This document shows positions 4,990 to 21,396 of a DNA stretch of 64,000 bases, one piece after another. Made by a program: the position numbers and the translations under genes. Source of the DNA: Gemmatimonadota bacterium (GTDB lineage: Bacteria > JAAXHH01); contig JAPOYX010000026.1 in the NCBI GenBank assembly GCA_026706345.1, positions 1,863 through 65,862 on the forward strand, read 5' to 3'. Position 1 is the stretch's first letter. Each line of letters starts with the position of its first letter. A model generated the notes under the pieces. It saw only the letters and a program-made list of their open reading frames with translations. It was not told the DNA's origin and searched no databases.

Positions 4990-7900
4990 TCAGTATTCGT
5001 CCTGGTGTTTTGCGATTTCGAAAATCGCGTTTACGAGTACGTCGTTGCCGTCGAGTTCCGACCTGATGGCATTACGGATCTTACGTTCCTTCAACGTGTT
5101 GCCCCGCCAATCATCCATTTTCGCAGTCCTTATCGTCTTATCCAATGATAAGGCTTTCGCCTCCGTAACATCCTCGGTCGATTCAAACGGGAAGTCGGGT
5201 GTTTGTTGTGCAACTTTCAGACCCTGAACTCCAACCAGGTTGTCGTATAGAGATCTCAATGCCGAGGTGTTTATGGTCGAAGGATAGGACGCGGAGGTAT
5301 CGGATGCTGGATTGTTTACTTTTTTTGCCAGTTCAACCATCTGAGCCAGGTATTCCTTGTATTCCAGTGCTTCCTGCTTGCGCTGGCGAATCAGATCGTC
5401 CAGCAATCGCGACATTTTCTCATAGTACTTTGGATTGACCGGTGCCTCGTCGATGATCAGTCGACGGACGTTATTCTCAATGGTCGAACTTACGGCTTCT
5501 TTGTCCTCTCGCATGGATTCAGGTAGCGCATCGACTGCGTCTTCACCATCTCTGACGATCAGTTCTACCAGAGTCATATCGTCGAACGTGGAAACCTGCT
5601 CACTTTCCTCTGCCCGGATATAGGTGTCGAGCAGGTGACGCATAGCAGGCTCGAACATCTTCATGTCGACAAAGTCTCCGCTGTTAAGCTTGACGACTTT
5701 CCGAGCTTTCTCGAAATGGTCCACTTCGTTTTTTATCTTCGCCGTCTCTGCCTCGGTGTAGCCGGCTTCCTGCATCTCGTTAGCCAGGTTTGCATATGCA
5801 CGCAGGAAAGCCGCCGTAAGTTTATAGAAAGCAATACGTTTCGGTTCGTTTTCTTTGAGTAGTTCAGCATCACTACTTGTCGAACCACAGAAGTACTTGA
5901 TATACGCGAAAGTATCGCGAGGCGGCTCGACAGGTTCCGTCAGCGCCTTGATCGCCTCCCTTGCTTCCTCCAACCGCTCACGACCTTGCTGGAGTCGGTC
6001 TTTTAGCAAGCCTTTTACATCTTCGGCATCGTACCCATCAAATGCTGCACCGGTGTAATCTTTGATCGACTGTTCCAGGGATTTGAAGAGGTCTTTGTAA
6101 TCGATAATATACCCGTATTCCTTGTCCTCACCGTCAAGACGGTTGACCCGGCAGATCGCCTGGAACAACCCATGGTCCTGCATATGCTTGTCGATGTAGA
6201 GACAGGTCGCGGGAGGCGCATCGAAACCGGTCAGCAGTTTGTCCACCACGATCAAGAGTTTCATCTGTCCGGGACTTTCGATGAAGCGCTTCTTGACTTC
6301 CTGCTCGAATCGGTCGGCCTTTTGCATAGCCGAGTCTTCGGGCTCGTTGAAATGATCCGCGAGCATCTTGCGGTAGACTTTGTACTTGAGCAGTCTCTCC
6401 GTGACTCCTTCGCCGGTCTCCTCCCCTTTGATATCCGCGGTGGCCGGCCGGTAGGAGGTGACGATGGCGCATTTCCCCTCCAGGCCATGGTTCTGAAACA
6501 TCTCATAGATGCGACAGGCAGAGTAGATGCTGTCTGAGACGAGCAAAGCGTTGCCTCGGTCGCTCTTAAGGCGGTCGCGTGTCTCCATGTCCAACAGAAT
6601 GTCCGCCACGATCTTCTCTAAACGATCCTGTGAACTCAACACCCTACGCATCGTGCCCCAGCGTTGCTTGAGCTGGGCCTTCGCCACATCACTCAAACCC
6701 TTGGTCTTGACGTCGAACCACAGATCGACCTTGTCCTGAGAGGTGATGTTCTGGTCTATGTCACGCGCCTCGTAGCGCAGATCCAGTACCACGCCATCGT
6801 TCACCGCTTCGTCGTATTTGTAGGTGTGTATGTAAGGTCCGAAGGTCTCAATACTTCGCCTTTTGTCATCTCTAAGCAACGGAGTGCCGGTAAACCCGAT
6901 CAGCACTGCTTCCGGCAGCAGGGAGGTCATTGCCGCGTGGAGTTTCCCGGACTGGGTGCGGTGACACTCGTCCACGAAGACGAAGATATCGCCCTTTGTG
7001 CGGAAATCGTCGGGAAGGTGTTTCCGGATATCTTCGAGGAACGCGTCGATATCGCCTTCCTCCGACGCGCCGAATTTATGGATCAGAGAGCAAACCAACC
7101 ACTCGTTGGCGGTGTTCAGTACATGCACTAGATCGGCACCGCTCTTGGTTCGATGGATATCCTCACTGACGCCCTTGAAGACCTTCTCAATCTGCTCGTC
7201 CAGTTCGGTGCGGTCGGTGATGATAAGGACGTGCCCGCCGCCGTTTAAGTTCTCACGTATCCACTTCGCCAGCCAGACCATGGTCAGACTTTTTCCACTG
7301 CCCTGGGTGTGCCATATGACGCCTCCTTCGCGCCGGTTCACGCGCTCCTGAGCGGCACGTACGCCGAAGTACTGATTGTGACGACATATCTTTTTATTCC
7401 CCGTGTCGAAGACGATGAAGTCGTGTACGATCTCCAATAGCCGCTTCTTGTCGCAAAGTTGACTGAGTTCCTGGAGCAGTGGATTGTCATCAATGGCGTT
7501 TGAGGGTTCTTGTTCCTTCCAACGCAGCCAGTACTTCTCAGGTGTCTCTATCGCGCCGTAACGAAGTCCTTCCGTCTCGTTACCCGCCATAACCAGTTGT
7601 ACGGTCGTAAAGAACGGACGGATGAACTCCTTCTTCTGGCTGTCCAGATTCTGTCGGATGCCCTCGCTTACCGATACAATAGATCGCTTCAATTCCAGCA
7701 CGCCTATGGCGATGCCGTTGACGTACAGTACAAGATCGGGGCGTCGTGTATGCTCACCGACGACTGTCACCTCTTCGGCGATGGCGAAGTCGTTGTTTTC
7801 GGGATTCTCCCAGTCGATTAGCCAGACAGTAATGGTCTGCTCTCCGACCTCCGGCTGAACTTTTACACCGTAGCGGAGCATTTCATACGTCTCGCGGTTG

Positions 7901-8169
7901 GAATCGTAGAGTGTTCTGCTTCCGCCGAGTGCTGTCGCCTTGCCAAAAGAAAACAGTGTCTTGGCGATAATCCCGTCATCGTGACCTTGGCGCTTGAGCC
8001 AGTCGGTGATCAGACCCTCTTCTATGTTGCCGTTGTCGGGCCGGTCCTTCCAGTTGCCGAGATAGGCGTAGCCGAGCACATCGTCAAATAACGCCACAAC
8101 ACACTGCTGTGTGAGGATCTCCTGTTCGCCGACTTTGCTCATGACTCGGGGTTTCCCGTGTTTTAACAC
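4990..8169 (-). CDS. hsdR: Type I restriction enzyme R subunit (HsdR), SF2 helicase/endonuclease
   Basis: 1059-aa ORF. Motif I is VIWHTQGSGKSLTMVWLAKWI. The DEAH-type motif II is FVFVDECHRTQSGK. The N-terminal region and overall length are HsdR-like. Confidence 0.9.
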   Translation of the reverse strand: MLKHGKPRVMSKVGEQEILTQQCVVALFDDVLGYAYLGNWKDRPDNGNIEEGLITDWLKRQGHDDGIIAKTLFSFGKATALGGSRTLYDSNRETYEMLRYGVKVQPEVGEQTITVWLIDWENPENNDFAIAEEVTVVGEHTRRPDLVLYVNGIAIGVLELKRSIVSVSEGIRQNLDSQKKEFIRPFFTTVQLVMAGNETEGLRYGAIETPEKYWLRWKEQEPSNAIDDNPLLQELSQLCDKKRLLEIVHDFIVFDTGNKKICRHNQYFGVRAAQERVNRREGGVIWHTQGSGKSLTMVWLAKWIRENLNGGGHVLIITDRTELDEQIEKVFKGVSEDIHRTKSGADLVHVLNTANEWLVCSLIHKFGASEEGDIDAFLEDIRKHLPDDFRTKGDIFVFVDECHRTQSGKLHAAMTSLLPEAVLIGFTGTPLLRDDKRRSIETFGPYIHTYKYDEAVNDGVVLDLRYEARDIDQNITSQDKVDLWFDVKTKGLSDVAKAQLKQRWGTMRRVLSSQDRLEKIVADILLDMETRDRLKSDRGNALLVSDSIYSACRIYEMFQNHGLEGKCAIVTSYRPATADIKGEETGEGVTERLLKYKVYRKMLADHFNEPEDSAMQKADRFEQEVKKRFIESPGQMKLLIVVDKLLTGFDAPPATCLYIDKHMQDHGLFQAICRVNRLDGEDKEYGYIIDYKDLFKSLEQSIKDYTGAAFDGYDAEDVKGLLKDRLQQGRERLEEAREAIKALTEPVEPPRDTFAYIKYFCGSTSSDAELLKENEPKRIAFYKLTAAFLRAYANLANEMQEAGYTEAETAKIKNEVDHFEKARKVVKLNSGDFVDMKMFEPAMRHLLDTYIRAEESEQVSTFDDMTLVELIVRDGEDAVDALPESMREDKEAVSSTIENNVRRLIIDEAPVNPKYYEKMSRLLDDLIRQRKQEALEYKEYLAQMVELAKKVNNPASDTSASYPSTINTSALRSLYDNLVGVQGLKVAQQTPDFPFESTEDVTEAKALSLDKTIRTAKMDDWRGNTLKERKIRNAIRSELDGNDVLVNAIFEIAKHQDEY

Positions 8170-8588: not shown

Positions 8589-8617
8589 TGATTCTCCGTC
8601 TTTTGTAAAGGAGCCTC

Positions 8618-9718: not shown

Positions 9719-10387
9719 TCACGACTCCGTGAACGCCAAGAATGCGTGATGCAATTCTATCGGTGAGTTATTATTCGTTCTCGGATGGAGACTCCCCCAA
9801 ACCCATGGCTCGCTAGTCAGATTTGACGGTCTCAAATTCTCGGCAGAGCGTGACCTGTGGTTCAAGTTGCGGTTGATACCTGCGACAGTGGTTTCAGGGT
9901 TGTCGGCGATCAGGTATCCAACCATGAATACAGCAGAGTGGTTCTCTGAGTACTGCCCGGTTTGGAAACGATCAATGCCGGCGACGACGTACTCACGGCA
10001 CAGGCGAGCATCGCCACCGGAAACCCGCTTGCATTCGATGATTGCGTGTGGGTCGTGCTCGCCGAAGCGGATGATATCGATCCACAGAATCGGAATATCG
10101 ATTCGCCCGTCTGGTACGAATACTTCAGGCCGAGAACGGGATTCGGTTCCGGGCGGAACTGCCATTAACTTGCTCCACGAAAAACGTCCCGAATTCAGCG
10201 CACATCGCATTCCATCGCGTAGCCGTTCCGTGATTTCTACTTCCCCCGCACTCGTACTGAGTTGAGACGACTGTAACGCAAGCGTCCAGCCGGCTTCGAC
10301 AGTACGCAGGATCGCTGTAGCAATTTCAGGCCATAGATTAATGAACCGACGACCGGCGACGACCGTGACATCAAATGGTAACCTCAT
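9719..10387 (-). CDS. Small Mrr-like PD-(D/E)XK (restriction endonuclease fold) protein
   Basis: 222-aa ORF with DIPILWIDIIRFGEHDPHAIIECKRV (D...ExK with the ECKR signature seen in Mrr-type catalytic domains). Its ATG overlaps the stop of the upstream methyltransferase by 4 nt (ATGA), which suggests translational coupling. Confidence 0.6.
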   Translation of the reverse strand: MRLPFDVTVVAGRRFINLWPEIATAILRTVEAGWTLALQSSQLSTSAGEVEITERLRDGMRCALNSGRFSWSKLMAVPPGTESRSRPEVFVPDGRIDIPILWIDIIRFGEHDPHAIIECKRVSGGDARLCREYVVAGIDRFQTGQYSENHSAVFMVGYLIADNPETTVAGINRNLNHRSRSAENLRPSNLTSEPWVWGSLHPRTNNNSPIELHHAFLAFTES

Positions 10388-13329
10388 AAAACGGAACCGG
10401 AGAGACTTTCGGCAATGACCGAATCCGCATCTTCCAAGGCCGATACACCCATCCAGTGCCGCCGGGCGGCAGGCTTGATGATCACAACTTCGTCGCGACC
10501 GTGTACACGAAGCTCGCGCTGGCCGATCAGGTTTGTCGTTAGGGGAACTTCCAAGCGTTCACCGACCCGGTCAATAACGTCTTTCAGGTCTCCACCTGTT
10601 CTAACAGTCTTCAACTCGGGAAGATCCGGGCATTTTGAACGCTCTTCAAGAATGAAGCGAACAACCCGAAGCGGTGCACGTTCCGGAAGTTCAAAGACCT
10701 CGGCGCGCATCCGGCGTTTGTTTGCTACGGAGAGCCAAACACCAATTGCCGCCACGAAATTGTGGGCATAGTCCGAAAGTTGGCTAACGTTTGCGGCTTC
10801 AACAGAAGCGATCCTGCCTGCCTTCCATTGCCAACTTGCACGGGACAGACCATCACGGGCAACGACACGGGCGGCTACGTCCATTTCATATAGGTCGAAT
10901 ACGGCTTCGTCAAGATTCTGCCAATCGGAGACGGAGGGAGAACCTGCCTGCATATCGCAGGCAAGTTGCACCAGGTATCTACCATTCTCGGTGTTCCGGG
11001 CTTTTTTGAGATCGGGAATCGGCATACGTTCGATGTCCCGAAGCTTGATCCGTTGCATCCACAAACCGAAAGTCGATGACGTCATGAGGAAGAACCAAGA
11101 TGCGAGCGACGAACTCAGAATAGTGGCTAGCAGGTGAAGAGTATCTCGCTCCGCGTGTGGAAGGGTCGCACCAAAGAAGGCGTCCGTGAAGATGGTATCT
11201 TGATCAGCAACAGCGGTGACCGGGCGTGGTCCGCGTCTCAGGAACTCCTTGATGAGCAGCAACGGCGCTTTGTAGATGTCGGGATTGCGCGGCCACTGCG
11301 CTTTATCGTCTTCAAACAAGCCCAAATCGGTCGAGACGGAGAACGGTCGAAGGTCGGCCGCTGTCAGGATCGGATGCCCTTGAAGGAAACGCGCAGCGCG
11401 GCTTTTATCTCCGAAAGTCAGCCCGACGTTGAACTCCGTACCGAGCTTGGCAAGCTGGTCTCCAAGCTTCGGATGACTGTCCGTCAGTTTGTCCAACAGG
11501 GACAGATCACGACGGAAACCGACAACCGCAGCCTTCAGGAACTCCGGTTTTCTCTGCCAGTCGGCCAGCGGCAACGTAATGATATCGCTTCTTGCAATCT
11601 CGAACGTGTGGCTTTGCGTTCCGGCCGGAGACCAGGGAACCTGCACCGCGGTGATCGCATCGGGGCGTGAGGGCCGGTGTCTTGCAAAGAGGACAACTGC
11701 GGGCATACTGCTTCTTGGAAACAGCCAATCGGACTGATTCGACAGATTGACCAGCGTCACGGGAGATAATTCTTCAATGATTTGACGCGAGGCGGATGCG
11801 CCGGTTCTGCTCAGACTGAAGAATTGGACCGCACTTAAAATCAGGCCAAATCGCGTATCCTCAGTGGCAAAATCCATCGCTCGAAACACGAAATCCAGAC
11901 TCTCACCACGAGGCGACAGCGCCGTCCTCCCGCTCCCTCGGGCTTGGCGTTCCGATCTGGCCGATTGACCTCGATAGCTCCATGGTGGATTACCGACGAT
12001 AACGTCGAACTTCCGGGAGGCGTCTCTTTCGGTTGGTGCTGACAGTCCATCTGCTAGAACTTTGTCATCCCACGCATCACCGACGAAGAGCGTTTTACCT
12101 ATCAACGGTTCGAACTTCAGCGTCTGAGGAGGATCTGGGTTCGGATCGAGTTCCAGGGCCGCCAGATAGAGACTGAATGCGGCTACGCGCACCGCGGCTT
12201 CGCTGATGTCCACGCCGTAGACCTGTTGGTGTAACGTGGAACGGATCAATTCACGGCTTCGTTCTTCTCTTTTCGATCGAAGATCAACCAGTCGTCGCAA
12301 GGCTTCGACCAGAAAGACGCCGGAACCGCAGGTCAGATCAAGTACGGTTTCTTCTCCAGTGAGTCCTTCCGTGATCTCATCCAGAACAAGAGAGACAAGC
12401 GACAGCCGGGTATAGAAGACATCCTTCCCGGAACGGGTATCGGAAATCGATGGATCTGCATGAGCGAATTGCTCATAGATCGAGCTGATCAACTCTACTG
12501 GTATCACGTCAAACTGGTAAGGAAAGAGCGTCATCTGCCCCGTCTCGGGGTCCATGGCTTCAAGGAAGTCCGCCACCCTTGAGAGATGCTCGGTGTCAGG
12601 CAGAGCATCTCCCTCTTCGGGGAACATGTCGCCATTGAATACCTCTCGAAGCCAATTGAACAATCGAGCTGTGGCTGGAGGATCACGCAGTACGGCGGGA
12701 AAGGACTGATGACCGTAATCCTTCTCAAGATTCTGTTCCGTGACGATCTTTCGATCAATCAGGTACTGAGTAAAAATCGAGCGGCCGATCAGTCCCTGAG
12801 CACCAGAACGGTCCAATCCTATCTTTAGTAGATCGACTTCAAGGGCATAGAGGTCAGACAACAACTTCCGGTCCACGCTGGCACTGCGATCTACGGTATC
12901 TGCCTGTTGCCAGAACCGTCCCGTTTCCATCGCAAGTCGACCGGCGAATGCATCAAGCTCATCCAACTCGTTCTCGATCTTCTGAAACGTACGCAGTCGG
13001 TTAGAGGAAGCGTCTCCGGTCTTCAGAGGTTGAGCAAAACCGTTGTAGAGGTCAATTCTTTGCGGAGAAACCACCCACAGCAGTGGAGAAAATCCCTGAT
13101 TCCATATCTCCCGGCGCCATCGGGCTATCTCCTTTTCGGGCGGAACTTCCGTTTCGCTCTTGAAATAGACGGTGAGCTCCGAGTCGCTACGCCAAAAGGC
13201 GTCAGGCATAAAGTCCCGAGTCTTACACTCGGCATGGGCCTTCTCATCAAGGTACACGCCGGGTGCCGGCTCGCCATTCGCCATGTAGCCGGTGGCTTCA
13301 AGTACTTCGCTTAGGACCTGAGTTGCCAT
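10384..13329 (-). CDS. Large gamma-class N6-adenine DNA methyltransferase (Type IIG/PglX-like architecture: N-terminal domain, HsdM-like MTase core, C-terminal target-recognition-like region)
   Basis: 981-aa ORF. Motif I is VLDLTCGSGVFLVEALRRL and motif IV is FDVIVGNPPWSYRG (the NPPW signature of adenine-N6 MTases). Upstream it has IPVELISSIYEQFAH, the HsdM-like helical motif. About 280 aa before and about 380 aa after the MTase core are not assigned. Confidence 0.8.
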   Translation of the reverse strand: MATQVLSEVLEATGYMANGEPAPGVYLDEKAHAECKTRDFMPDAFWRSDSELTVYFKSETEVPPEKEIARWRREIWNQGFSPLLWVVSPQRIDLYNGFAQPLKTGDASSNRLRTFQKIENELDELDAFAGRLAMETGRFWQQADTVDRSASVDRKLLSDLYALEVDLLKIGLDRSGAQGLIGRSIFTQYLIDRKIVTEQNLEKDYGHQSFPAVLRDPPATARLFNWLREVFNGDMFPEEGDALPDTEHLSRVADFLEAMDPETGQMTLFPYQFDVIPVELISSIYEQFAHADPSISDTRSGKDVFYTRLSLVSLVLDEITEGLTGEETVLDLTCGSGVFLVEALRRLVDLRSKREERSRELIRSTLHQQVYGVDISEAAVRVAAFSLYLAALELDPNPDPPQTLKFEPLIGKTLFVGDAWDDKVLADGLSAPTERDASRKFDVIVGNPPWSYRGQSARSERQARGSGRTALSPRGESLDFVFRAMDFATEDTRFGLILSAVQFFSLSRTGASASRQIIEELSPVTLVNLSNQSDWLFPRSSMPAVVLFARHRPSRPDAITAVQVPWSPAGTQSHTFEIARSDIITLPLADWQRKPEFLKAAVVGFRRDLSLLDKLTDSHPKLGDQLAKLGTEFNVGLTFGDKSRAARFLQGHPILTAADLRPFSVSTDLGLFEDDKAQWPRNPDIYKAPLLLIKEFLRRGPRPVTAVADQDTIFTDAFFGATLPHAERDTLHLLATILSSSLASWFFLMTSSTFGLWMQRIKLRDIERMPIPDLKKARNTENGRYLVQLACDMQAGSPSVSDWQNLDEAVFDLYEMDVAARVVARDGLSRASWQWKAGRIASVEAANVSQLSDYAHNFVAAIGVWLSVANKRRMRAEVFELPERAPLRVVRFILEERSKCPDLPELKTVRTGGDLKDVIDRVGERLEVPLTTNLIGQRELRVHGRDEVVIIKPAARRHWMGVSALEDADSVIAESLSGSVL

Positions 13330-13786
13330 CTTTTGCCTTGCGGGTTTGTATCCTGAATCGAAAAGTCAACCCACGATTACTTATCGTATGTTGAGTTAGT
13401 TCAGTTAATCATTATGTATTTAGTCGTGATTCGATTGTCAATCTCGTATTTCTCCGGCTCTTCAATGTTCACGCGGTTGTTTCAGACTGATTTCGCCGCG
13501 ATGAAACATCGGTCATCGTGATCGGTCTCTTTCGGATCAATATCCAATGCCCATGGCTTTGGCGGTTTTTGTGAGGCGGTTGACACTTTAGTACGCCGGT
13601 GCGAGGCCGGTGTCAAACCACCCCAGAACGGGATATGCGAAGGGGGCGGATAGCTCTCATGCTCGAAGGAATTCAGAAGACGTCAGGTATTCTCTCGCTG
13701 TCGTAGGCCAGACGGTCCGACGCGCCGAATTTGGGACGAGCAGACCAGTCGACCCTGGGAGGAACGTAGAGTAATGGGCGAGTATC
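13330..13786. promoter_or_regulatory. 457-bp AT-rich intergenic region upstream of the large methyltransferase, with an inverted repeat GTTGACAC(n26)GTGTCAAC
   Basis: This is the largest non-coding gap in the restriction-modification island. The inverted repeat ggttgacactt...ggtgtcaaacc lies at about 13575-13625, and no ORF of 60 aa or more is present. It probably carries promoter/operator elements for the methyltransferase and nuclease pair. Confidence 0.35.
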
Positions 13787-16700
13787 CTAATATCCGATAG
13801 ATCCCAACGGACCGATTTTATCATTCGGTATGGGCAGATCTGAAAGGAATCTCATTGGTACCTGAACGTTTGTAACTAACCTCTGATCAATTCGATTTGG
13901 ATTTACCGGGAACCCTATGATCGTGTTCAAGCTTGAGGGCTTGGTTTCGATCCAGTTTACCCTTCTCATATGCTTAAACAGTTCATCTTTCGCTTCTCCG
14001 CGAAAACGACGGCAGATTTCACTGATCTCGGCGGCTGTTCGAGCAAGTCTCAATCGTTTACACTCAACGATTAAGATTGCTCCATTTGATTTCCATGCCA
14101 AGACATCAATATCCCCTAAGTCGGACGACGCACCTAACTGAGTCATCGAAATCTCGGTTTTGGTTCGCCATCCATTCGTACTCAGATGTTCAGCGACTGT
14201 GACTGTGAAGTCATGACCTTTCTTGTCTGTGATTCCGCCGATATAGCTTCTCATCGTATCCGAACTGAAAAACTCCTGAGGTAGATACCCGTTTTCAATA
14301 CAGTATAGTAGATAACGGAATCCCAACTGTAAGGTGCCAACTCCGAAGATCACTACGTCCGTGTCCTGTTTTCCAAAAACAAGTATCGGCTTAAAAACCA
14401 CGGACATTCGACGACTGTAACGCCACGGTTGGATATCCCTGTTTGTCATTCCAGGCGGTGTTACATCCCATTTGGGCCTATGGAATAAACTGAAAGCAGA
14501 TATGAACGCATTGGTTGCGTTCTCGGAAAAGCCCCTTGTTGTAATAAGTCTGTTTCTAATTTCACCCAATGTCGTCTTGACAACGATTTGATCGCAATCG
14601 ACTGCCATTTCGAACAATTCTTCAATTCCCACAACGGCATCTCGTAACGAAATGTCGAACTCGGATTCAAACGCGTTAAGTAAGCTTTCAGGATAAAGTT
14701 CCTCTATCGGCTTTGGATTTTCAAATAGTCTGTTTTGATACAGGTTAGGATATCTGGAAACATCCTCTTCAAAACCATCAGTAACGTGTGCTTTAATAAA
14801 TGGTTCGATTACAGTGCTTATGATATCCCTTTCAATGGAATAAGTTCCATTTTGGTGTAATTCTATTGGAGGATCGAGCAACTTGTTTTTGAATCCGTCG
14901 GAGTGAGATGCGACTTGCATCATCAGGGCAGTCTTTGCTAAGAGTTCATCCATTTGCTGTTGTGATAGGAGATTCCCTCCCGATTCCGGACATTCACAGA
15001 TTGCTATTTCAAGTAAGGTACGAGTTGCCAAGTCAGTGATGCTCCTGATTCCCTCGCGTTCATGTGCGGTATGGAGCACATCATCATCAGATCCATAGAG
15101 TGCTTGCATTGCTTTTGCCGTCCGTCGCCAACGAATTCGGTCATGGAGGATACCTTCATGAACGAAAAACATCCCCTGTATTACCGACGCTCGATCAAGA
15201 GAGTTTAATTGGTATCGCAACTGATCCCATATCTTTTCAACGACCTTATTCAAGAACTTGTTACATGCGCTTATTGAGTCGATATTACTTACGTTATCAC
15301 TTTGTAGGCAGCCCTCAGACAGTTTCAGTTCTGAAAATGAAAAGTCCTCACGTGATAGCATTACAGGATTCATGTTGTGTTTTTGTAGCAGTTGTTCAAC
15401 GTAATCATAGCTCGTGAAAACATGTAATATCCGTATCCCCGCATCACCAGTTACTATTCTGGTTAACTGCTCGATTTTGCTATCATCGAAGTCCGTGCCC
15501 AATCCCACATGTAGCCTGGTAAGGCCTTTCGTAATACAGTTGACAACATATTGTTCGCCGAAGTTTTCCGGATGCTGGAAGTACTTCAAGAGAACCGGCG
15601 GAAACTTTATTACGACAGTTCGGTTCTTTATGGATATTCCTGGTTCAATGAACTCCGTCGCCGACTGTATACCTGCACTAACACTCGGTAAGTCCACATC
15701 TGTTAAATCTAGGCATACTTCTATTGGACCGGACTGTAGATCCTTGCCCTGCGACTCGAATTCAATCACAAGCCTGAAGAACAAGTCAATAAAGCCATTC
15801 CAAATTTGATAAGCATGGTCCCTTAATCCATTGCCCTCTTCACGAAGGCGTAAACTAAACCAACTGGGGCCACGCTCTGTTTCAATCGCCCCTGCTAATA
15901 CACCTGATCGTAGATGTCCAAGGCTGGCATATACTGGGCGATCTGAAACGGAATCAAAGTATGAATCTGCATCAAGTCTTTCGACGTAAACATAATTTCC
16001 TGTCGTTGATTGGATTAAATGACGGTCGAGTGTTCTTCTGCCTTTGGCGCGTACATTCATCGGGTAACCACAATCAACCAAGAGAACTGAACCCAGGCTC
16101 ACTGATAGCCCTCGAGGTACTATCTGGAAATTAGACCTTAACCAAGAGCAGAAAAAAGTGTAGTCACCACTGATGCCTGCAAATTCAACTCCTTGTTCTT
16201 CCACCCATCTTTTCTGTTTGATGAATTTCAAAAACCTTCGAATCGATTGAGCGGGATCATTAACCAACATTAGAAAATCTGAAATATGTATAACGGTCAG
16301 ACTCCACCGCCCCTGCCAATCTTCAGTGCTTAAGCCACAATTTCCTCCTAATCCACCTGCGACCAATATTGTTGTTCCGCGATCTACTCCTGGTGAAGAC
16401 ACGCAATGATCTACGGTTCGATTAAGGTATACCCACAGGCGTTTTTCTGTTTCTTTCGCATACTCAATCACACTGTCAAGTCCTTCAATCAACGGGTCTA
16501 CACTACAGTGAAGGAGGACTACATGTAGACCCTGATTCAGGTCGACCTTGAGCAACCAATCTTGAATAGGCAAATCTGACGTGTCTGTGCTTGGTACTTG
16601 ATGAGAATCCACGTTTTCTAGCGTGCTTAGTCCCTCCGACTCTATTTGATAGGACTGATAGGAGGCTAGCAATTGTGCGAAGTGCGGCAACAGTCCCGTC

Positions 16701-17470
16701 AATTGTAACTGACCCAAAAGGAATCTCCTGATAGCAGGGCCGACTGCATGAGGCAACACAAGTACCAGTTCGTTCCCAAACTGCAAAAGCGGGTATCGCT
16801 CCAGTGAAGTATGTCCTAATCTCTCGGAATCAAGGAGTTTCCTGTTGTGAGACTTAAGGATAAACGGTTCCAGTAAAACAGAACTAACCTGTAGTGCAGT
16901 GAGGTCGTTTGTGGTGAATGATACGGATTTCGCCCTGTCGACAATTCGAATCGCTGGCGATAATCTACTGACGCTTTTGGGGGTTGATGATTCAGTATGC
17001 CACCGTTGCAATCCAACTCTATCTGCGACACATTCGCTCAGTGCTAGCAAAGCAAATAATGGGTCTAGCATTTTCTTATATTCAGGCAATGCTCTATGGT
17101 GGTATATGATATCGAGAACAGTCTGTGTAAAGTAACCGCTTGAATGCCAGATTCCCTCAAACAACCGCCGATTTCCATTTGGTGTACTAACGTTCGTGAT
17201 GAAAACATCTTCGGCCGGGTCTTCTGCCATTACAATAGAAGTATCGCCCAGAAATCTGTTTAGCCAACGATCTACATCATTCAACGTTGGTTTCCGTTTC
17301 CCTCGACAGTGGAGAACAGCTAGATGAACGAGGATTTCCAGACGTATAGTATTCGCATGTAATGATGGTACAGTGAGGAGACTAGCAAGACGACTTGATG
17401 TATGACGTAAGTCGTACTTTTGAAGATCCTGCACAAGTGGCTTCAGTTCGGGGTCGTCAAGAGCGATCAT
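13787..17470 (-). CDS. Large (1227-aa) uncharacterised protein with a C-terminal Mrr-like PD-(D/E)XK nuclease motif and no recognisable NTPase motif
   Basis: The long ORF sits in the most AT-rich part of the window. Its C-terminus has GDIDVLAWKSNGAILIVECKRLRLART (D...ECKR, nuclease core). No Walker A/B was seen. The roughly 1000-aa N-terminal portion has no motif I recognise. Confidence 0.6.
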   Translation of the reverse strand: MIALDDPELKPLVQDLQKYDLRHTSSRLASLLTVPSLHANTIRLEILVHLAVLHCRGKRKPTLNDVDRWLNRFLGDTSIVMAEDPAEDVFITNVSTPNGNRRLFEGIWHSSGYFTQTVLDIIYHHRALPEYKKMLDPLFALLALSECVADRVGLQRWHTESSTPKSVSRLSPAIRIVDRAKSVSFTTNDLTALQVSSVLLEPFILKSHNRKLLDSERLGHTSLERYPLLQFGNELVLVLPHAVGPAIRRFLLGQLQLTGLLPHFAQLLASYQSYQIESEGLSTLENVDSHQVPSTDTSDLPIQDWLLKVDLNQGLHVVLLHCSVDPLIEGLDSVIEYAKETEKRLWVYLNRTVDHCVSSPGVDRGTTILVAGGLGGNCGLSTEDWQGRWSLTVIHISDFLMLVNDPAQSIRRFLKFIKQKRWVEEQGVEFAGISGDYTFFCSWLRSNFQIVPRGLSVSLGSVLLVDCGYPMNVRAKGRRTLDRHLIQSTTGNYVYVERLDADSYFDSVSDRPVYASLGHLRSGVLAGAIETERGPSWFSLRLREEGNGLRDHAYQIWNGFIDLFFRLVIEFESQGKDLQSGPIEVCLDLTDVDLPSVSAGIQSATEFIEPGISIKNRTVVIKFPPVLLKYFQHPENFGEQYVVNCITKGLTRLHVGLGTDFDDSKIEQLTRIVTGDAGIRILHVFTSYDYVEQLLQKHNMNPVMLSREDFSFSELKLSEGCLQSDNVSNIDSISACNKFLNKVVEKIWDQLRYQLNSLDRASVIQGMFFVHEGILHDRIRWRRTAKAMQALYGSDDDVLHTAHEREGIRSITDLATRTLLEIAICECPESGGNLLSQQQMDELLAKTALMMQVASHSDGFKNKLLDPPIELHQNGTYSIERDIISTVIEPFIKAHVTDGFEEDVSRYPNLYQNRLFENPKPIEELYPESLLNAFESEFDISLRDAVVGIEELFEMAVDCDQIVVKTTLGEIRNRLITTRGFSENATNAFISAFSLFHRPKWDVTPPGMTNRDIQPWRYSRRMSVVFKPILVFGKQDTDVVIFGVGTLQLGFRYLLYCIENGYLPQEFFSSDTMRSYIGGITDKKGHDFTVTVAEHLSTNGWRTKTEISMTQLGASSDLGDIDVLAWKSNGAILIVECKRLRLARTAAEISEICRRFRGEAKDELFKHMRRVNWIETKPSSLNTIIGFPVNPNRIDQRLVTNVQVPMRFLSDLPIPNDKIGPLGSIGY

Positions 17471-17567
17471 CTATTTTCCGGTTTATCGGTCCGTAGAGTT
17501 AACCCGGTCAAGGGTGCAGTACTATTGATCCAATCTTTGTAAAGAAGAGCCAACTTGTCATTCCGTC

Positions 17568-18842
17568 CTATTTGGAAGGAGATGCGGGTTTAACAAGCCT
17601 CACTCGACCTGTGAGAAGCTGTTGCATCATGCCCTGCTTGATGGCGCGAGTCTTGTCCCGGTGGCGCTCCAGCACGGCGATCTCGATATCCATATCAGAA
17701 AGAGTGCCAGCAATAGCACGTTGTTCCCGAACTGGCGGTAGCCAGATCTCAAAGTTTCGCATTACATCCCAGTCTGTGCGTGGCATGTGTGTTCCATAGG
17801 AGACACTGGCCGCTTTGATGAATTGGTCGGATTGAATGATGGTATATAGGAAACCGTTGTCTGCCTGCTTCGTATCAGTCACCAGTGGCCATATCTCAGT
17901 CGTGCATATTCCGTCCCGGTCTGCGAGCCAGAACTTTCGAAGATATGAACGAAGTCGGCCAAAGAGCACATCACCAGAATAGAAACGATATTTGGAAGAA
18001 GTTGAGTACTGAGCCGTTGAACACCCCAGTAGCCGCCCCTCGCGTTGCCCGATATGGTCGAGTTCCACACAGGGCGTATCTATTGGTACTTTCGAGGGTA
18101 GTACCTTTTGATTGCGAATGGACGCAATATCCCCTAGTCGTTTTGTCTCCCACTTCCCACTGAATCCCGGCAGCCGAAACTTTCCAGTGAGAAGTTGCTG
18201 CGTGGTAGCTTGTTTGACAGCCTGCTTCTTGTCGATCAGTTCCTCCAACGCCGTGAGTAATCCATCTACATCCGATAACGCCTCAGCGATGGTGCGTTGT
18301 TCAGTAGGAGATGGTAACGGTATGCGCACCTCTCTGAGTGCCTGTTTCGATATTCCAAAGACCTTTAGACCAGTGGCGAGACTACGCAACTGCCTCTTTA
18401 CGGATTCCTTATCCAGAAGGTACCCGCGATAGCCTTCATGGGTGCGTAGGTCCTTTGGTCTCAACAGGAGAGTATGCAGTCCGGCAACTGCTTCAGTAAC
18501 GCCAAGATTTCGAACTTCCACGCTCTTGCCGACCCCGGTTTCGTCCTCAGAAGCATCAGCAACTATCAGATCGCCCTCACGAAGCCGGTTCGCTGTAACG
18601 CCTTTATCAACCGAAAGGCGTGGTAATTTATCGCGAGAGAAGTCGATGAAGTGATGAAAGCGGGTATGGATATCTCCGTAATGCACGTATGCAACGTCAC
18701 CGGTGTCACCGAGTTCGGCCCTCGAATTAGAAGCAGTACGCAGATAGTCAAAAAGATCACCAATGGAATACATGGACCAATCAGACGGTATCACCCCCAC
18801 TTCGGTTCGCTTGTAACCTTTTGGCACCTTATCCGATAGCAC
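17568..18842 (-). CDS. hsdS: Type I restriction-modification specificity subunit (HsdS), two target-recognition domains
   Basis: 424-aa ORF with HsdS-like conserved regions (GDIHTRFHHF, central repeat LLTGKFRLPGF, C-terminal QQLLTGRVRL). It overlaps hsdM by 14 nt. Confidence 0.85.
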   Translation of the reverse strand: MLSDKVPKGYKRTEVGVIPSDWSMYSIGDLFDYLRTASNSRAELGDTGDVAYVHYGDIHTRFHHFIDFSRDKLPRLSVDKGVTANRLREGDLIVADASEDETGVGKSVEVRNLGVTEAVAGLHTLLLRPKDLRTHEGYRGYLLDKESVKRQLRSLATGLKVFGISKQALREVRIPLPSPTEQRTIAEALSDVDGLLTALEELIDKKQAVKQATTQQLLTGKFRLPGFSGKWETKRLGDIASIRNQKVLPSKVPIDTPCVELDHIGQREGRLLGCSTAQYSTSSKYRFYSGDVLFGRLRSYLRKFWLADRDGICTTEIWPLVTDTKQADNGFLYTIIQSDQFIKAASVSYGTHMPRTDWDVMRNFEIWLPPVREQRAIAGTLSDMDIEIAVLERHRDKTRAIKQGMMQQLLTGRVRLVKPASPSK

Positions 18843-21396
18843 GTGACCTCCGAATTTGTCGTACCGTAAGCCCCATCCGCTTCAAGTGCCCCTCGACCTT
18901 CTCGCCGAACGCCTCCACTTCCCGATCCAACTCCGGCAACGGACAGGCATAGCGTTCTTCCAGTTCTGTCACGCGCCCGGTAAGTTGCCGTGTCAACCCT
19001 TGCACCTCATCCTTGACGGCGGCCCGTATACTCGTAAACCACTTGTCCTCGATCACAAGCGTCTTTATCTCAATTTCGGTGAGCATCGTGTACTTCTGGA
19101 TCACCGATGTAAGTAACGTGTCCCGTGTCTGCTTGCATGTATCCTTTTGGACCTTCTCGTCTTCCATGAACTGGAGATAGTCGTAGAGAATATCCAACTC
19201 CTCGAATAGTCCTTCTTCGTCTTGGACGTTCTTGGTCCAATCATGAACGCCAAAGGTTGTTTTCTTGATGGCCTTTACCTGATTGTGCTCCGGCGTTCCT
19301 TCGGAACAACTCTTTAGAATGGCTTCCTTTAACTCGATGACGCGTTGCCGCACATTACCCTTGGTGATACCACTCTTTCCTTCAAGACCGTTGAGAGCGC
19401 CCTCATCGGCACCATGTTCCTCTTCGAATTCCTCCTTACGTTCCGCCAATTCGGAAACTTCCGCCTCAAGTCGCTCCAGTTCTTGCTGTTCGTTCTTGAA
19501 GAATTTCGCAATTAACAAAGTATGCGGGATAAGTTCACCAATGTACTTGGTAGTCTTTTGGCCCTTCTTGATAGTGAACTCCGGAGTTTCCTTGTCATGG
19601 GAGGAACGAAGGTTGCGACCTACCTGCCAGCCTTCCGCGGCGATAAGGTACACATCGTCCTGCATCGTTTCATCCCAATAGTCCATCAACCGTTGGTACA
19701 TGTCGTACGGGTCGAGCAGCGGCAGGTCAGCGAAACGCGCCAGCAGATCCTCTGCCAAGGCGCGAATGAGTTCCCTGGGGTTGGCGCCTGTCTCCAGTCC
19801 TTTCAGAACGGCCTCATGTGTCTTGCACCAATCGTCGAGAACGGCCGCAACCCGGGTCTCGTACGATCTGAATTCCATGTGATCGAGAATGGCGGCCTTC
19901 ACCTGTCCCGTCTCGATGCGACTTTCGCTGTAGCCCTCTCGGCCGTTGCCGACAAACAACGTCCGGCGCAGTGAGGGGAAGACGTCCCAGTAGACACTGA
20001 GCGCGTCGAGGTCGCGGTCCGGGATGCCGCCACGCAAATGGGCGTCGAGATCGTGCAGATCTTCCGGCTCGCTGGAATCGACCCAGCGCGGGATGTTGAG
20101 GTTGTAGTCGTTAGCGGGGCCGACAATCTGGGCGGTCGGAACCATGCGGGAATAACGCGGCAACTTAATCTGTCGGTTAAATACGTCGACGATTCGGTGG
20201 ATGTCCTGTGCGCGCAGGCGGTTCTTGTTGCCGTCCTTGCGGAAGCCCTTGCTCGCGTCGATCATGAAGATGCCGCCGCGCGCATGGGCGTTTTCCTTGT
20301 CTACAACCAGGATGCAGGCGGGGATGCCGGTGCCGTAGAACAGGTTGGGCGGCAGGCCGATGATACCCTTGATGAATCCGCGTTGGATGAGGTTCTTTCG
20401 AATGTCCGCTTCCCGGTTGCCCCGGAACAGTACGCCGTGCGGCAGGATGATCGCCCCCTTGCCCTTGCTGTTGAGCGACGCAATGAGGTGAAGGAGGAAC
20501 GCGTAGTCACCATTCCTGGCAGGTGGGATACCGTAGCCGAAACGTCCGAACTCGTCGTTGGCAGGATCAAGGCCGTTGGACCAGGCCTTGGCGGAAAAAG
20601 GTGGATTGGCAACGGCAAAGTCGAAGGTCTTGAGGCGGTCGTTCTGGTTCTTGAAGTACGGAGCGGCCAGGGTGTTGCCTCGCCAGATTTCGGCGGTCTC
20701 GTGACCATGCAGGATCATGTTCATCCGCGCCAGCGCATAGGTGGCGTTGTCCATCTCTTGGCCATAGACGGTAATGCCATGCGGTGCTTCATCGGCGGCC
20801 CTGAGCAGGAGCGAACCTGAACCGCAGGTCGGGTCGTAGAGGGTCTGATCCTGCCGGGTATCCGGTCCGATGCCGATCACCTGGGCCATGATGCGTGAGA
20901 CCTCGGCCGGCGTGTAGAACTGTCCCTTGCTCTTGCCGGATTCCGTGGCGAAGTGCATCATCAAATACTCGTAGGCGTCGCCGAGGAGATCATCCCCATC
21001 GGCCCGGTTCGCGCCAAAATCGAGACTGTCAAATATGGCGACGAGCCTGGAAAGCCTGTCCTGCATCTCCTTGCCGGACCCCAGCTTGTTTTCGTCGTTG
21101 AAATCCGCCTGATCGATGACGTCTCCAAGATCGTTCGCTTCCGCGAGCGTGGCGATCACCGTGTTTATCTTATCGCCGATCTCTTTATCGCCGACCAGCT
21201 TTACGATATCGGCGAAACTCCCGCCCTCGGGCACTTCGATGAGCATATTCGGATCTTTGGACGCCTTGTCAGAGACGTATTTCATGAACAGCAGCGTAAG
21301 GACATAATCCTTGTACTGAGAGGCATCCATGCCACCACGCAGTTCATCGCAGCTTTGCCAAAGAGAGGAATATAGTTGGGACTTCTTCAGGGCCAT
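18829..21396 (-). CDS. hsdM: Type I restriction-modification methyltransferase subunit (HsdM), with a long C-terminal coiled-coil-like extension
   Basis: 855-aa ORF. It has LGDAYEYLMMHFA, motif I LYDPTCGSGSLLLRA, and motif IV FDFAVANPPFSAKAW (NPPF). The charged C-terminal region ELERLEAEVSELAERKEEFEEEH is unusual in length. Confidence 0.9.
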   Translation of the reverse strand: MALKKSQLYSSLWQSCDELRGGMDASQYKDYVLTLLFMKYVSDKASKDPNMLIEVPEGGSFADIVKLVGDKEIGDKINTVIATLAEANDLGDVIDQADFNDENKLGSGKEMQDRLSRLVAIFDSLDFGANRADGDDLLGDAYEYLMMHFATESGKSKGQFYTPAEVSRIMAQVIGIGPDTRQDQTLYDPTCGSGSLLLRAADEAPHGITVYGQEMDNATYALARMNMILHGHETAEIWRGNTLAAPYFKNQNDRLKTFDFAVANPPFSAKAWSNGLDPANDEFGRFGYGIPPARNGDYAFLLHLIASLNSKGKGAIILPHGVLFRGNREADIRKNLIQRGFIKGIIGLPPNLFYGTGIPACILVVDKENAHARGGIFMIDASKGFRKDGNKNRLRAQDIHRIVDVFNRQIKLPRYSRMVPTAQIVGPANDYNLNIPRWVDSSEPEDLHDLDAHLRGGIPDRDLDALSVYWDVFPSLRRTLFVGNGREGYSESRIETGQVKAAILDHMEFRSYETRVAAVLDDWCKTHEAVLKGLETGANPRELIRALAEDLLARFADLPLLDPYDMYQRLMDYWDETMQDDVYLIAAEGWQVGRNLRSSHDKETPEFTIKKGQKTTKYIGELIPHTLLIAKFFKNEQQELERLEAEVSELAERKEEFEEEHGADEGALNGLEGKSGITKGNVRQRVIELKEAILKSCSEGTPEHNQVKAIKKTTFGVHDWTKNVQDEEGLFEELDILYDYLQFMEDEKVQKDTCKQTRDTLLTSVIQKYTMLTEIEIKTLVIEDKWFTSIRAAVKDEVQGLTRQLTGRVTELEERYACPLPELDREVEAFGEKVEGHLKRMGLTVRQIRRSRAIG

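What the first reader, a model, noticed from the sequence alone, without database searches (positions are those of the whole stretch)
13787..17470. 1227-aa orphan protein whose only recognisable feature is a C-terminal Mrr-like (ECKR) PD-(D/E)XK nuclease core; candidate novel effector or sensor
The C-terminus reads GDIDVLAWKSNGAILIVECKRLRLART, a D...ExK motif of the Mrr-catalytic type. I can assign no ATPase, helicase or methyltransferase motif to the preceding roughly 1000 residues. The length, the AT-rich composition and the position directly upstream of a large N6-methyltransferase and a second Mrr-like nuclease suggest a modification-dependent (Type IV-like) or sensor-nuclease defence protein of an undescribed family.
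Basis: partly seen in the sequence, partly recalled or inferred. Interest (0 to 1): 0.85.

Follow-up and report, generated by a model that had tools for sequence, protein, structure and literature searches.

The report
Upx-family anti-phage sensor nuclease
The 1227-residue "orphan" is a divergent but complete member of Upx, a known single-protein phage-defence nuclease whose structure and trigger were published in 2026, so it is a real defence gene but not a new kind of one.

Summary
The ORF (13787-17470, minus strand, 1227 aa) and its C-terminal D...ExK motif are real. The protein is not an orphan. It matches the Upx anti-phage family over its full length: PADLOC E=2e-153, NCBIfam NF042954 E=1e-173 (below the equivalog cut-off), and Pfam PF28173 "Upx-like" on an identical protein. 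It also matches the SeUpx cryo-EM chain 9wuf (phmmer E=1e-98). An AlphaFold2 model (pLDDT 89.6) superposes on 9wuf with TM 0.82.

The catalytic residues D1122, E1136 and K1138 align with SeUpx D1161, E1176 and K1178. They are invariant in 112 close homologs and in 80 genome-derived ones.

The neighbouring 981-aa methyltransferase and 222-aa nuclease form a separable cassette. It accompanies Upx in 3 of 89 Upx loci, and three other loci carry it without Upx. The modification-dependent (Type IV-like) reading is therefore not supported.

Most likely mechanism, inferred from homologs: the N-terminal and middle domains sense a phage protein (the large terminase ATPase domain, Evans 2026) and activate the C-terminal PD-(D/E)XK nuclease, aborting infection.

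Side findings:
- Two of the five residues proposed as an N-terminal second nuclease site in SeUpx are not conserved here or across most of the family.
- Upx sits as cargo between hsdS and hsdR of a Type I R-M operon, an arrangement also seen in an unrelated Type I lineage.

Verdict: new member of a known kind; low interest.

The parts
13787..17470 (-). Upx-family anti-phage protein, 1227 aa, complete ORF including the stop codon
   Evidence: ORF. PADLOC Upx E=2.1e-153, aa 10-1208. NCBIfam NF042954 E=1.3e-173. PDB 9wuf_A E=1.2e-98. AF2 model against 9wuf: TM 0.82. An identical protein in L093 carries PF28173 Upx-like.
16022..17470 (-). N-terminal domain (aa 1-483, equivalent to SeUpx NTD 1-515). 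Putative phage-protein sensor.
   Evidence: Boundary taken from the phmmer alignment to 9wuf (window D482 = SeUpx D514). SeUpx domain limits are from PMC13099982. The sensor role is inferred from PMC13601566.
17201..17224 (-). EDPAEDVF motif (aa 83-90), a family hallmark just before the N-terminal beta-hairpin
   Evidence: Nearly invariant in alignment A1. It was one of the three peptide patterns that retrieved 320 genome loci. It is visible in the alignment block.
17165..17188 (-). Beta-hairpin aa 95-102, holding the positions equivalent to the proposed SeUpx NTD nuclease residues D122, D127 and R129. Here they are S95, N100 and R102.
   Evidence: N100 is invariant in 112/112 close homologs. 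In 80 genome homologs this position is N in 61 and D in 14. The D122 position is hypervariable.
15416..16021 (-). Middle domain (aa 484-685, equivalent to SeUpx MD 516-714)
   Evidence: Alignment to 9wuf (window F685 = SeUpx M714). The domain definition is from PMC13099982.
13790..15415 (-). C-terminal domain (aa 686-1227, equivalent to SeUpx CTD 715-1272)
13790..14218 (-). PD-(D/E)XK nuclease core (aa ~1085-1227, equivalent to SeUpx 1121-1272)
   Evidence: Alignment to 9wuf. Pfam Mrr_cat 20.7 bits, E=4.6e-4. The model shows an alternating strand/helix core at trimmed residues 1093-1191.
14105..14107 (-). Catalytic Asp D1122 (= SeUpx D1161)
   Evidence: alignment. Invariant in 112/112 and 80/80.
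14057..14065 (-). Catalytic E1136-C1137-K1138 (= SeUpx E1176-C-K1178)
   Evidence: alignment. E and K are invariant in 112/112 and 80/80. E1176A abolishes defence in SeUpx (PMC13601566; PMC13099982).
17568..21396 (-). Context only: hsdM (18829-21396) and hsdS (17568-18842) of the Type I R-M operon that hosts Upx as cargo
   Evidence: Pfam, PADLOC and NCBIfam.
4990..8169 (-). Context only: hsdR of the same Type I R-M operon. The 9.4-kb gap between hsdS and hsdR carries Upx and four other cargo genes.
   Evidence: The same operon carries different cargo in L001, L002, L003, L008, L010 and L091.

Best explanation
The gene encodes a divergent (about 22% identity) but full-length member of the Upx family, a stand-alone anti-phage protein.

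Shown here:
- It has the same three-domain fold as the SeUpx cryo-EM structure.
- It has an intact, invariant C-terminal PD-(D/E)XK triad (D1122/E1136/K1138).
- It has no obligatory partner gene.
- It is a horizontally acquired cargo gene inside a Type I R-M operon.

Inferred from experiments on homologs: the large N-terminal and middle region acts as a sensor that binds a phage protein made during infection. The most likely ligand is the ATPase domain of the large terminase. Binding switches on the C-terminal Mg-dependent nuclease, whose DNA degradation stops phage replication and/or kills the infected cell (abortive infection).

For this protein only the C-terminal domain is likely to be a nuclease.
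For: Family membership:
- PADLOC PDLC02221 Upx, E=2.1e-153 over aa 10-1208.
- NCBIfam NF042954, E=1.3e-173 over profile positions 20-1222 of 1240.
- PF28173 Upx-like on the 100%-identical L093 product.
- phmmer to PDB 9wuf_A, E=1.2e-98 over aa 15-1172.
- AF2 model with pLDDT 89.6 and pTM 0.88. Foldseek to 9wuf gives E=2.2e-63 and TM 0.82/0.81 over 1248 columns; the next hit has E=0.32.

Active site: D1122/E1136/K1138 align to SeUpx D1161/E1176/K1178. They are invariant in 112/112 and 80/80 homologs.

Autonomy: neighbours differ among homologs. The MTase cassette occurs in 3 of 89 loci.

Family size:
- 2258 50%-identity clusters at E<=1e-3.
- 320 species genomes.

Mechanism in homologs:
- SeUpx and HpUpx share 16% identity, and both defend against phage PhiV-1.
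- Three homologs are activated by diverse terminase ATPase domains.
- E1176A abolishes defence and toxicity (PMC13601566).
- SeUpx is a Mg-dependent nuclease whose CTD carries the canonical site (PMC13099982).

Foreign origin: GC3 is 42% against 80-85% in core genes.
Against: - Nothing was tested on this protein itself. Identity to the characterised SeUpx is only about 22%.
- The NCBIfam score (579 bits) is far below the equivalog cut-off (1900), so NCBI's pipeline would not name it Upx.
- The trigger is disputed in the literature. PMC13099982 proposes the ejection protein gp16 and a second, N-terminal nuclease. PMC13601566 finds only the terminase in a genome-wide screen.
- The terminase binding mode rests on AlphaFold 3 models, not on a solved complex.
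- In vitro, apo SeUpx cleaves ssDNA as a 3'-5' exonuclease but not dsDNA, so the lethal substrate in vivo is unclear.
- No phages of the host (apparently a Gemmatimonadota-like bacterium) are known.
Confidence: 0.78

Rival explanations
1. Dual-nuclease model (Zhou et al. 2026). The protein carries two nucleases: the C-terminal PD-(D/E)XK site and a minimal N-terminal 'DXR' site that the middle domain auto-inhibits. A phage ejection protein (gp16-like) releases the inhibition early in infection. The protein then degrades single-stranded replication intermediates as a 3'-5' exonuclease, without necessarily killing the cell.
For: This was shown biochemically for SeUpx: NTD exonuclease activity, loss of activity on mutating D122/R129, D127, E147 or D173, and relief of inhibition by gp16 (PMC13099982). 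The window protein has the same fold. It keeps R102 (= R129), D120 (= E147) and E146 (= D173).
Against: - Two of the five proposed NTD catalytic residues are replaced here: D122 by S95 and D127 by N100.
- The D127 position is Asn in 112/112 close homologs. In 80 genome homologs it is Asn in 61 and Asp in only 14.
- The D122 position is hypervariable (V, E, L, T, I and others). A conserved metal-dependent active site would not look like this.
- Evans et al. found no gp16-induced toxicity, and a homolog also protects against T4, which lacks gp16.
Confidence: 0.12
2. The protein is a modification-dependent (Type IV-like) or MTase-coupled restriction nuclease that works together with the downstream 981-aa N6-adenine methyltransferase and the 222-aa nuclease.
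For: The gene lies next to the MTase and the 222-aa gene, on the same strand. The trio is kept in the 92%- and 77%-identical relatives. The CTD is borderline Mrr_cat-like.
Against: - The cassette is present in only 3 of 89 Upx loci, all at the same syntenic site.
- The 71%- and 66%-identical Upx genes at the same hsdS-hsdR site lack it.
- The cassette occurs without Upx in L090, L091 and L092.
- A 457-bp gap separates Upx from the MTase, whereas the MTase and the 222-aa gene overlap by 4 bp.
- No known modified-base-binding domain is detected. The fold matches only Upx.
- SeUpx defends on its own in E. coli.
Confidence: 0.03
3. Upx is functionally coupled to the Type I R-M operon that hosts it, for example as a PrrC-like fail-safe that fires when the Type I enzyme is inhibited by a phage anti-restriction protein, or through co-regulation with hsdMS.
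For: - Upx sits 97 bp after hsdS and upstream of hsdR.
- The same placement is seen in relatives (L010, L021/L027).
- It is also seen in an unrelated Type I lineage (hsdM about 32% identical): Nitrospira L018 has a 16-bp gap after hsdS and an overlap with hsdR, and Zetaproteobacteria L026 probably has the same arrangement.
- In the window's subfamily, 3 of 14 well-flanked loci have Type I genes nearby, against 2 of 49 in the rest of the family.
Against: - Most Upx loci (about 72 of 80 species loci) have no Type I genes within 10 kb.
- The subfamily enrichment is not significant (Fisher p=0.07).
- Upx homologs defend alone in E. coli.
- Embedding of unrelated, independently acting defence genes in Type I operons is a known general phenomenon (PMC11411939; bioRxiv 10.1101/2024.01.29.577857).
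- The same slot carries many other cargo genes.
Confidence: 0.05
4. The gene is a decaying, non-functional remnant of a horizontally acquired element.
For: The composition is strongly foreign. In relative L001 the adjacent hsdR is split into two ORFs, which shows that decay does occur in this island.
Against: - The ORF is intact at the family-typical length.
- All invariant residues are kept.
- The full-length model is confident.
- An identical copy exists in an independent assembly record.
Confidence: 0.02

Closest known systems
SeUpx (Salmonella enterica NCTC6026 Upx, PDB 9wuf; PMC13099982, PMC13601566)
   Same: - Same length class (1227 vs 1272 aa) and the same NTD-MD-CTD architecture.
- Same fold (TM 0.82).
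- Identical C-terminal D...ExK triad in the same local motif: GDIDxLAW...(V/I)ECK.
- Single-gene organisation.
   Different: - About 22% identity.
- About 28 residues shorter at the N-terminus.
- Two of the five proposed NTD nuclease residues are replaced (S95, N100).
- It scores below the NCBIfam equivalog cut-off.
- It is chromosomal cargo inside a Type I R-M operon of a high-GC, Gemmatimonadota-like genome.
- It has not been tested experimentally.
HpUpx and PbUpx (Hydrobacter penzbergensis and Pyrinomonadaceae Upx homologs tested in PMC13601566)
   Same: They are divergent environmental Upx homologs that keep terminase-triggered toxicity. This shows that function survives at about 16% identity, so it plausibly holds for this protein too.
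Avs1-3 (antiviral STAND NTPases that sense the phage large terminase, often with Mrr-like nuclease effectors)
   Same: It works like them: a large sensor recognises the conserved phage terminase and activates a PD-(D/E)XK/Mrr-like nuclease effector, causing abortive infection (PMC13601566).
   Different: - It is not a member of that family. There is no Walker A motif or STAND NTPase, and no fold match.
- Apo Upx is monomeric.
- Upx is predicted to bind a locally unfolded ATPase domain by beta-augmentation rather than through a TPR pocket.
Mrr / Type IV modification-dependent restriction endonucleases
   Same: The catalytic core is a PD-(D/E)XK fold with a D...ExK motif. The match to Pfam Mrr_cat is borderline (20.7 bits against a gathering cut-off of 21).
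   Different: - It has no Mrr_N or other modified-DNA-binding domain.
- About 1080 residues of Upx-specific fold precede the core.
- There is no dependence on, or conserved linkage to, a methyltransferase.
Defence genes embedded in Type I R-M operons (PrrC; TgvAB in Vibrio cholerae VPI-2, PMC11411939; 'guilt-by-embedding', bioRxiv 10.1101/2024.01.29.577857)
   Same: The genomic arrangement is the same: an independent defence gene inserted between hsdS and hsdR.
   Different: The protein families and mechanisms are different. No evidence of functional coupling was found for Upx.

Membership tests
Upx (PADLOC PDLC02221 / Pfam PF28173 Upx-like) | Full-length match to the family profile | tested here: met
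   PADLOC E=2.1e-153, aa 10-1208 against profile positions 38-1249 of 1271. PF28173 is recorded for the 100%-identical product in L093 and for all 120 listed homologs. The local Pfam copy lacks PF28173, so that model could not be run directly.
Upx (NCBIfam NF042954, equivalog) | Score at or above the curated equivalog cut-off (1900 bits) | tested here: not met
   579 bits, E=1.3e-173, with an end-to-end alignment over positions 20-1222 of 1240. It is a homolog, but outside the narrow group the equivalog model was built for.
Upx | Three-domain fold of the solved structure (PDB 9wuf) | tested here: met
   AF2 model with pLDDT 89.6 and pTM 0.88. Foldseek gives E=2.2e-63 and TM 0.82/0.81 over 1248 columns, with no other hit below E=0.3. 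phmmer to 9wuf_A gives E=1.2e-98.
Upx | C-terminal PD-(D/E)XK triad (SeUpx D1161, E1176, K1178), required for defence | tested here: met
   D1122, E1136 and K1138 align to the triad. They are invariant in 112/112 and 80/80 homologs.
Upx | Proposed N-terminal 'DXR' nuclease site (SeUpx D122, D127, R129, E147, D173; PMC13099982) | tested here: not met
   The window has S95, N100, R102, D120 and E146. The D127 position is Asn in 112/112 close homologs and 61/80 genome homologs. The D122 position is hypervariable. This feature is not conserved family-wide, so it is better regarded as a property of SeUpx than as a defining feature of the family.
Upx | Single-gene system with no conserved partner | tested here: met
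   The neighbours of homologs differ. Only 3 of 89 loci share the MTase cassette, and about 8 of 80 have Type I genes nearby.
Upx | Anti-phage activity; toxicity triggered by the phage large terminase | not testable with these tools
   Experimental only. Shown for SeUpx, HpUpx and PbUpx (PMC13601566).
Mrr-type / Type IV modification-dependent restriction enzyme | Mrr_cat catalytic domain above the Pfam gathering threshold | tested here: inconclusive
   The isolated CTD scores 20.7 bits (E=4.6e-4) against a gathering cut-off of 21. The full-length protein gives no hit. Two homologs (P0075, P0093) carry a precomputed PF04471 hit.
Mrr-type / Type IV modification-dependent restriction enzyme | N-terminal modified-DNA recognition domain (Mrr_N, SRA, etc.) | tested here: not met
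   There are no Pfam, NCBIfam or PADLOC hits other than Upx. The only fold match is Upx.
MTase-linked R-M or BREX/DISARM-type system component | Conserved genomic linkage to a methyltransferase, or a profile hit to a known component | tested here: not met
   PADLOC gives Upx only. The MT981/nuc222 cassette is in 3 of 89 Upx loci, and it occurs without Upx elsewhere.
Avs (STAND NTPase terminase sensors) | STAND NTPase domain with Walker A/B motifs | tested here: not met
   There is no Walker A motif, no profile hit and no fold match.

The most novel reading that the evidence does not exclude
In this subfamily Upx may not be a mere passenger but a functionally coupled module of the Type I R-M operon. 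It would be co-transcribed with hsdMS and act as a second line of defence that fires when restriction fails or is inhibited, as PrrC does with EcoprrI. The lead is that Upx has been captured in the same hsdS-hsdR slot by two unrelated Type I lineages (the window/L010 type and the Nitrospira L018 / Zetaproteobacteria L026 type).

A more modest, more probable reading (about 0.6) is that the N-terminal 'second nuclease' of SeUpx does not generalise and the NTD is purely a sensor. That would help resolve the disagreement between the two 2026 papers.
Probability: 0.06. Interest if true: 0.55.

Novelty: new member of a known kind. Interest (0 to 1): 0.2.

Why it matters
For the scan, this removes a high-scoring "novel family" candidate. 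The protein belongs to Upx, which already has PADLOC, NCBIfam and Pfam models, a cryo-EM structure and an identified trigger.

What remains useful is modest:
1. It is a well-modelled, very divergent environmental Upx (about 22% identity to SeUpx, from a Gemmatimonadota-like genome). It could serve to test how general terminase sensing is.
2. Family-wide conservation data bear on a live disagreement in the literature. The C-terminal triad is invariant. The proposed N-terminal nuclease residues are not. This favours a sensor role for the N-terminal domain.
3. The locus is a clear example of the hsdS-hsdR gap of a Type I R-M operon acting as an exchangeable slot for defence cargo. One cargo is an uncharacterised, widespread MTase + 222-aa nuclease cassette, which may deserve its own look.

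Tried and rejected
- **Pfam-A (local copy) on the full protein:** no hit. This copy does not hold PF28173, so membership was established through PADLOC, NCBIfam, the PDB and the precomputed annotation of an identical protein.
- **Hypothesis of functional linkage to the MTase + 222-aa nuclease:** rejected after context analysis of 89 Upx loci and 3 cassette-only loci.
- **ATPase, helicase and MTase motif scan:** nothing found.
- **Promoter and terminator scan around the gene:** fewer promoter-like sites than in shuffles, and nothing interpretable.
- **Direct repeats that might bound the cargo modules in 8000-18900:** only short two-copy matches, taken as chance.
- **tRNA genes as integration sites:** none in the window.
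- **Phage genomes:** no Upx homolog among 50,697 phage records. On plasmids there are only 8 records, all annotated as hypothetical proteins.
- **Enrichment of Type I R-M adjacency in the window's Upx subfamily:** suggestive but not significant (3/14 vs 2/49, Fisher p=0.07).
- **Second Upx copy or Avs gene in the window:** Evans et al. report these for some loci, but none was found here.

Full report
**1. Observation**

The window holds an uninterrupted ORF of 1227 codons at 13787-17470 on the minus strand.

The gene is strikingly AT-rich for its surroundings. Its GC is 44.3% and its GC3 is 42%. The flanking core genes have GC3 of 80-85%, and the rest of the window averages 63% GC.

There is no Walker A, DEAD-box or N/D/S-PP-Y/F/W motif. 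The local Pfam-A copy gives no hit. The factual part of the finding is therefore correct.

**2. What it is**

Two curated defence libraries recognise the whole protein as Upx:
- PADLOC PDLC02221: E=2.1e-153, aa 10-1208 against profile positions 38-1249 of 1271.
- NCBIfam NF042954 "anti-phage protein Upx": E=1.3e-173, 579 bits, profile positions 20-1222 of 1240. This score is well under the 1900-bit equivalog cut-off, so the protein is a distant homolog, not a close ortholog of the enterobacterial proteins.

Further evidence:
- All 120 listed homologs from the 5.8-billion-protein collection carry Pfam PF28173 "Upx-like".
- A metagenome contig (L093) holds the same locus. Its 1227-aa product is 100% identical to the window protein and also carries PF28173.
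- Against PDB sequences the protein hits one chain only: 9wuf_A, the cryo-EM structure of Salmonella enterica Upx, at E=1.2e-98 over aa 15-1172.
- An AlphaFold2 model of aa 10-1209, built on a 112-sequence alignment, is confident (pLDDT 89.6, pTM 0.88).
- Foldseek places that model on 9wuf with E=2.2e-63, TM 0.82/0.81 and 22% identity over 1248 columns. The next best PDB hit has E=0.32.

Sequence, profile and fold evidence all agree.

**3. Active site**

The window motif GDIDVL...IVECK aligns with SeUpx D1159/D1161...E1176-C-K1178. This gives D1122, E1136 and K1138 as the catalytic triad.
- These residues, plus D1120 and C1137, are invariant in 112/112 homologs of at least 41% identity.
- The triad is invariant in 80/80 Upx genes extracted from species-representative genomes, down to about 26% identity.
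- The isolated C-terminus just misses the Pfam Mrr_cat gathering threshold (20.7 vs 21 bits), so "Mrr-like" is a reasonable label for the core.

**4. Size of the family**

A full HMMER pass over 1.84 billion cluster representatives finds 2258 clusters at E<=1e-3 and 756 at E<=1e-30. Nearly all are 1200-1270 aa. A scan of one genome per species finds 320 species across many phyla. Homologs occur on a few plasmids and in no phage record.

**5. What is known about Upx**

Upx is listed as a single-gene PD-(D/E)XK defence system. Two 2026 papers characterise it.

Zhou et al. (PMC13099982) report:
- The monomeric cryo-EM structure has an NTD (1-515), an MD (516-714) and a CTD (715-1272).
- Upx has Mg-dependent 3'-5' ssDNA exonuclease activity.
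- The CTD site is D1161/E1176/K1178.

Evans et al. (PMC13601566) report:
- SeUpx and two very divergent homologs (16% identity) are triggered by the ATPase domain of diverse phage large terminases.
- Toxicity and defence need E1176.
- gp16 does not trigger toxicity in their screen.
- AlphaFold 3 models suggest that the N-terminal sensor binds an unfolded terminase ATPase core by beta-augmentation.

**6. Mechanism proposed for the window protein**

By homology the domains are:

| Domain | Residues | Window coordinates |
|---|---|---|
| NTD | aa 1-483 | 16022-17470 |
| MD | aa 484-685 | 15416-16021 |
| CTD | aa 686-1227 | 13790-15415 |
| Nuclease core | about aa 1085-1227 | 13790-14218 |

I infer a three-step mechanism:
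1. The NTD and MD sense a phage protein, most likely the large terminase.
2. Binding activates the C-terminal nuclease.
3. The nuclease's activity stops the infection, probably at the cost of the cell.

The fold, the triad and the autonomy of the gene are shown here. The trigger and the outcome are inferred from homologs.

One point can be added from the sequence data. Of the five proposed NTD nuclease residues, the window has S95 for D122 and N100 for D127. It keeps R102, D120 (for E147) and E146 (for D173). The region is anchored by the nearly invariant EDPxEDVF motif, so the alignment is reliable.
- The D127 position is Asn in 112/112 close homologs. In the 80 genome homologs it is Asn in 61 and Asp in 14.
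- The D122 position is hypervariable.

An essential metal-dependent site would not be expected to vary like this. For this protein, and for most of the family, the "dual nuclease" model is therefore unlikely, and a sensor role of the NTD fits better. This is an inference from conservation, not a biochemical result.

**7.

All neighbours are on the minus strand:

| Gene | Coordinates |
|---|---|
| hsdM | 18829-21396 |
| hsdS | 17568-18842 |
| Upx | 13787-17470 |
| 981-aa gamma-class N6-adenine MTase | 10384-13329 |
| 222-aa ECKR protein (4-bp overlap with the MTase) | 9719-10387 |
| 281-aa TIR-like protein | 8618-9463 |
| FitA-like antitoxin | 8346-8588 |
| hsdR | 4990-8169 |
| YgjP-like peptidase | 4266-4988 |

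Upx is thus cargo in the gap between hsdS and hsdR of a Type I R-M operon.

The flanking core genes are 86-93% identical to those of Gemmatimonadetes MAGs that have the same operon at the same site. The cargo differs among these relatives:
- The 92% and 77% Upx relatives keep Upx + MTase + 222-aa. In the 77% relative's two contigs (L002, L003) an AAA_13 ATPase is added, and L003 also carries a KwaA-like gene.
- The 71% and 66% relatives have Upx followed by a small toxin-antitoxin-like pair and no MTase.
- L091 has the MTase + 222-aa + TIR-like genes and no Upx.

More distant Upx genes stand in unrelated contexts. Over 89 Upx loci the MTase cassette occurs in 3.

**8. Embedding in Type I operons**

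Type I genes lie within 10 kb of Upx in about 8 of 80 species loci. Upx lies between hsdS and hsdR in the window's lineage. It does so again in a Type I lineage whose hsdM is only about 32% identical to the window's. Nitrospira L018 is the clear case, with a 16-bp gap after hsdS and an overlap with hsdR. Zetaproteobacteria L026 probably has the same arrangement.

The enrichment in the window's subfamily is not significant (3/14 vs 2/49, p=0.07). Embedding of independent defence genes in Type I operons is already documented (PMC11411939; bioRxiv 10.1101/2024.01.29.577857). I therefore treat it as defence-island organisation. A small residual probability remains for real functional coupling.

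**9. Verdict**

It is a new, divergent member of a known and recently characterised kind. Interest is low (0.2).

The most useful by-products are:
- the conservation evidence against a general N-terminal nuclease;
- the description of the hsdS-hsdR cargo slot;
- the uncharacterised MTase + 222-aa cassette.

Noticed in passing
[not shown]
   Followed up: partly
window 8170-17567 (the gap between hsdR and hsdS), compared with L001, L002, L003, L008, L010, L090, L091, L093: The hsdS-hsdR gap of this Type I operon is a variable cargo slot in related genomes. Its contents vary:
- Upx alone with a FitA/PIN-like pair;
- Upx + MTase cassette;
- an AAA_13 ATPase, a KwaA-like gene and a 294-aa gene, followed by Upx + MTase cassette;
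- the MTase cassette + TIR-like gene without Upx.
Meanwhile hsdR stays 87-89% identical where it is complete.
   Followed up: partly
L018:287-9638 (Nitrospira MAG) and L026 (Zetaproteobacteria MAG): Upx is embedded as hsdM-hsdS-Upx-hsdR in a Type I system whose hsdM is only about 32% identical to the window's. In L018 there is a 16-bp gap after hsdS and an overlap with hsdR. This is an independent capture of Upx in the same operon slot.
   Followed up: partly
window 17165-17188 (-), aa 95-102; alignments: The residues proposed in PMC13099982 as a second, N-terminal nuclease site of SeUpx are not conserved across the family. The D127 position is Asn in 61 of 80 genomes and in 112/112 close homologs, and the D122 position is hypervariable. 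The C-terminal triad is invariant. This bears on the disagreement between the two 2026 Upx papers.
   Followed up: yes
window 8618-9463 (-): This 281-aa protein has no Pfam or NCBIfam hit, but its C-terminal part (aa 163-257) matches a PADLOC 'TIR effector' model (E=9e-14). It also has a very weak nucleoside 2-deoxyribosyltransferase-like signal. A 73%-identical copy follows the MTase cassette in L091 and L092. It may be a further defence effector.
   Followed up: partly
window 8346-8588 (-): An 80-aa FitA-like ribbon-helix-helix antitoxin gene (Pfam E=7e-21) has no PIN toxin gene beside it. Only about 177 bp separate it from hsdR. Relative L008 has the FitA + PIN pair at the same place. It looks like an orphan antitoxin left after cargo turnover.
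   Followed up: partly
window 9507-9611 (-): A 35-aa stretch similar to the conserved C-terminus of HsdS (43% identity to aa 386-420 of the window's own HsdS, E=9e-5) lies just downstream of the 222-aa gene. Similar HsdS-like fragments sit beside the cassette in L090, L091 and L092. It may be a scar showing that cargo is exchanged by recombination at hsdS 3' ends.
   Followed up: no
window 18829-21396 (-): HsdM is unusually long (855 aa). The HsdM_N and N6_Mtase domains end near aa 445, and they are followed by about 400 further residues with no Pfam domain. The length matches PADLOC MTase_I model PDLC03027 end to end.
   Followed up: no
window 1562-4207 (-) and L093:16181-20669: The defence island abuts an AddB-like PD-(D/E)XK nuclease (881 aa). 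In L093 this is followed by a UvrD/AddA-like helicase, so one island boundary is the addAB-type repair locus. The other boundary is formed by PhyH and 2OG-Fe(II) oxygenase genes at 21961-23897.
   Followed up: no
window 34701-35981 (+), in a local GC dip (57% at 34-36 kb): A 426-aa ORF has no Pfam hit and lies in the only other low-GC patch of the window.
   Followed up: no
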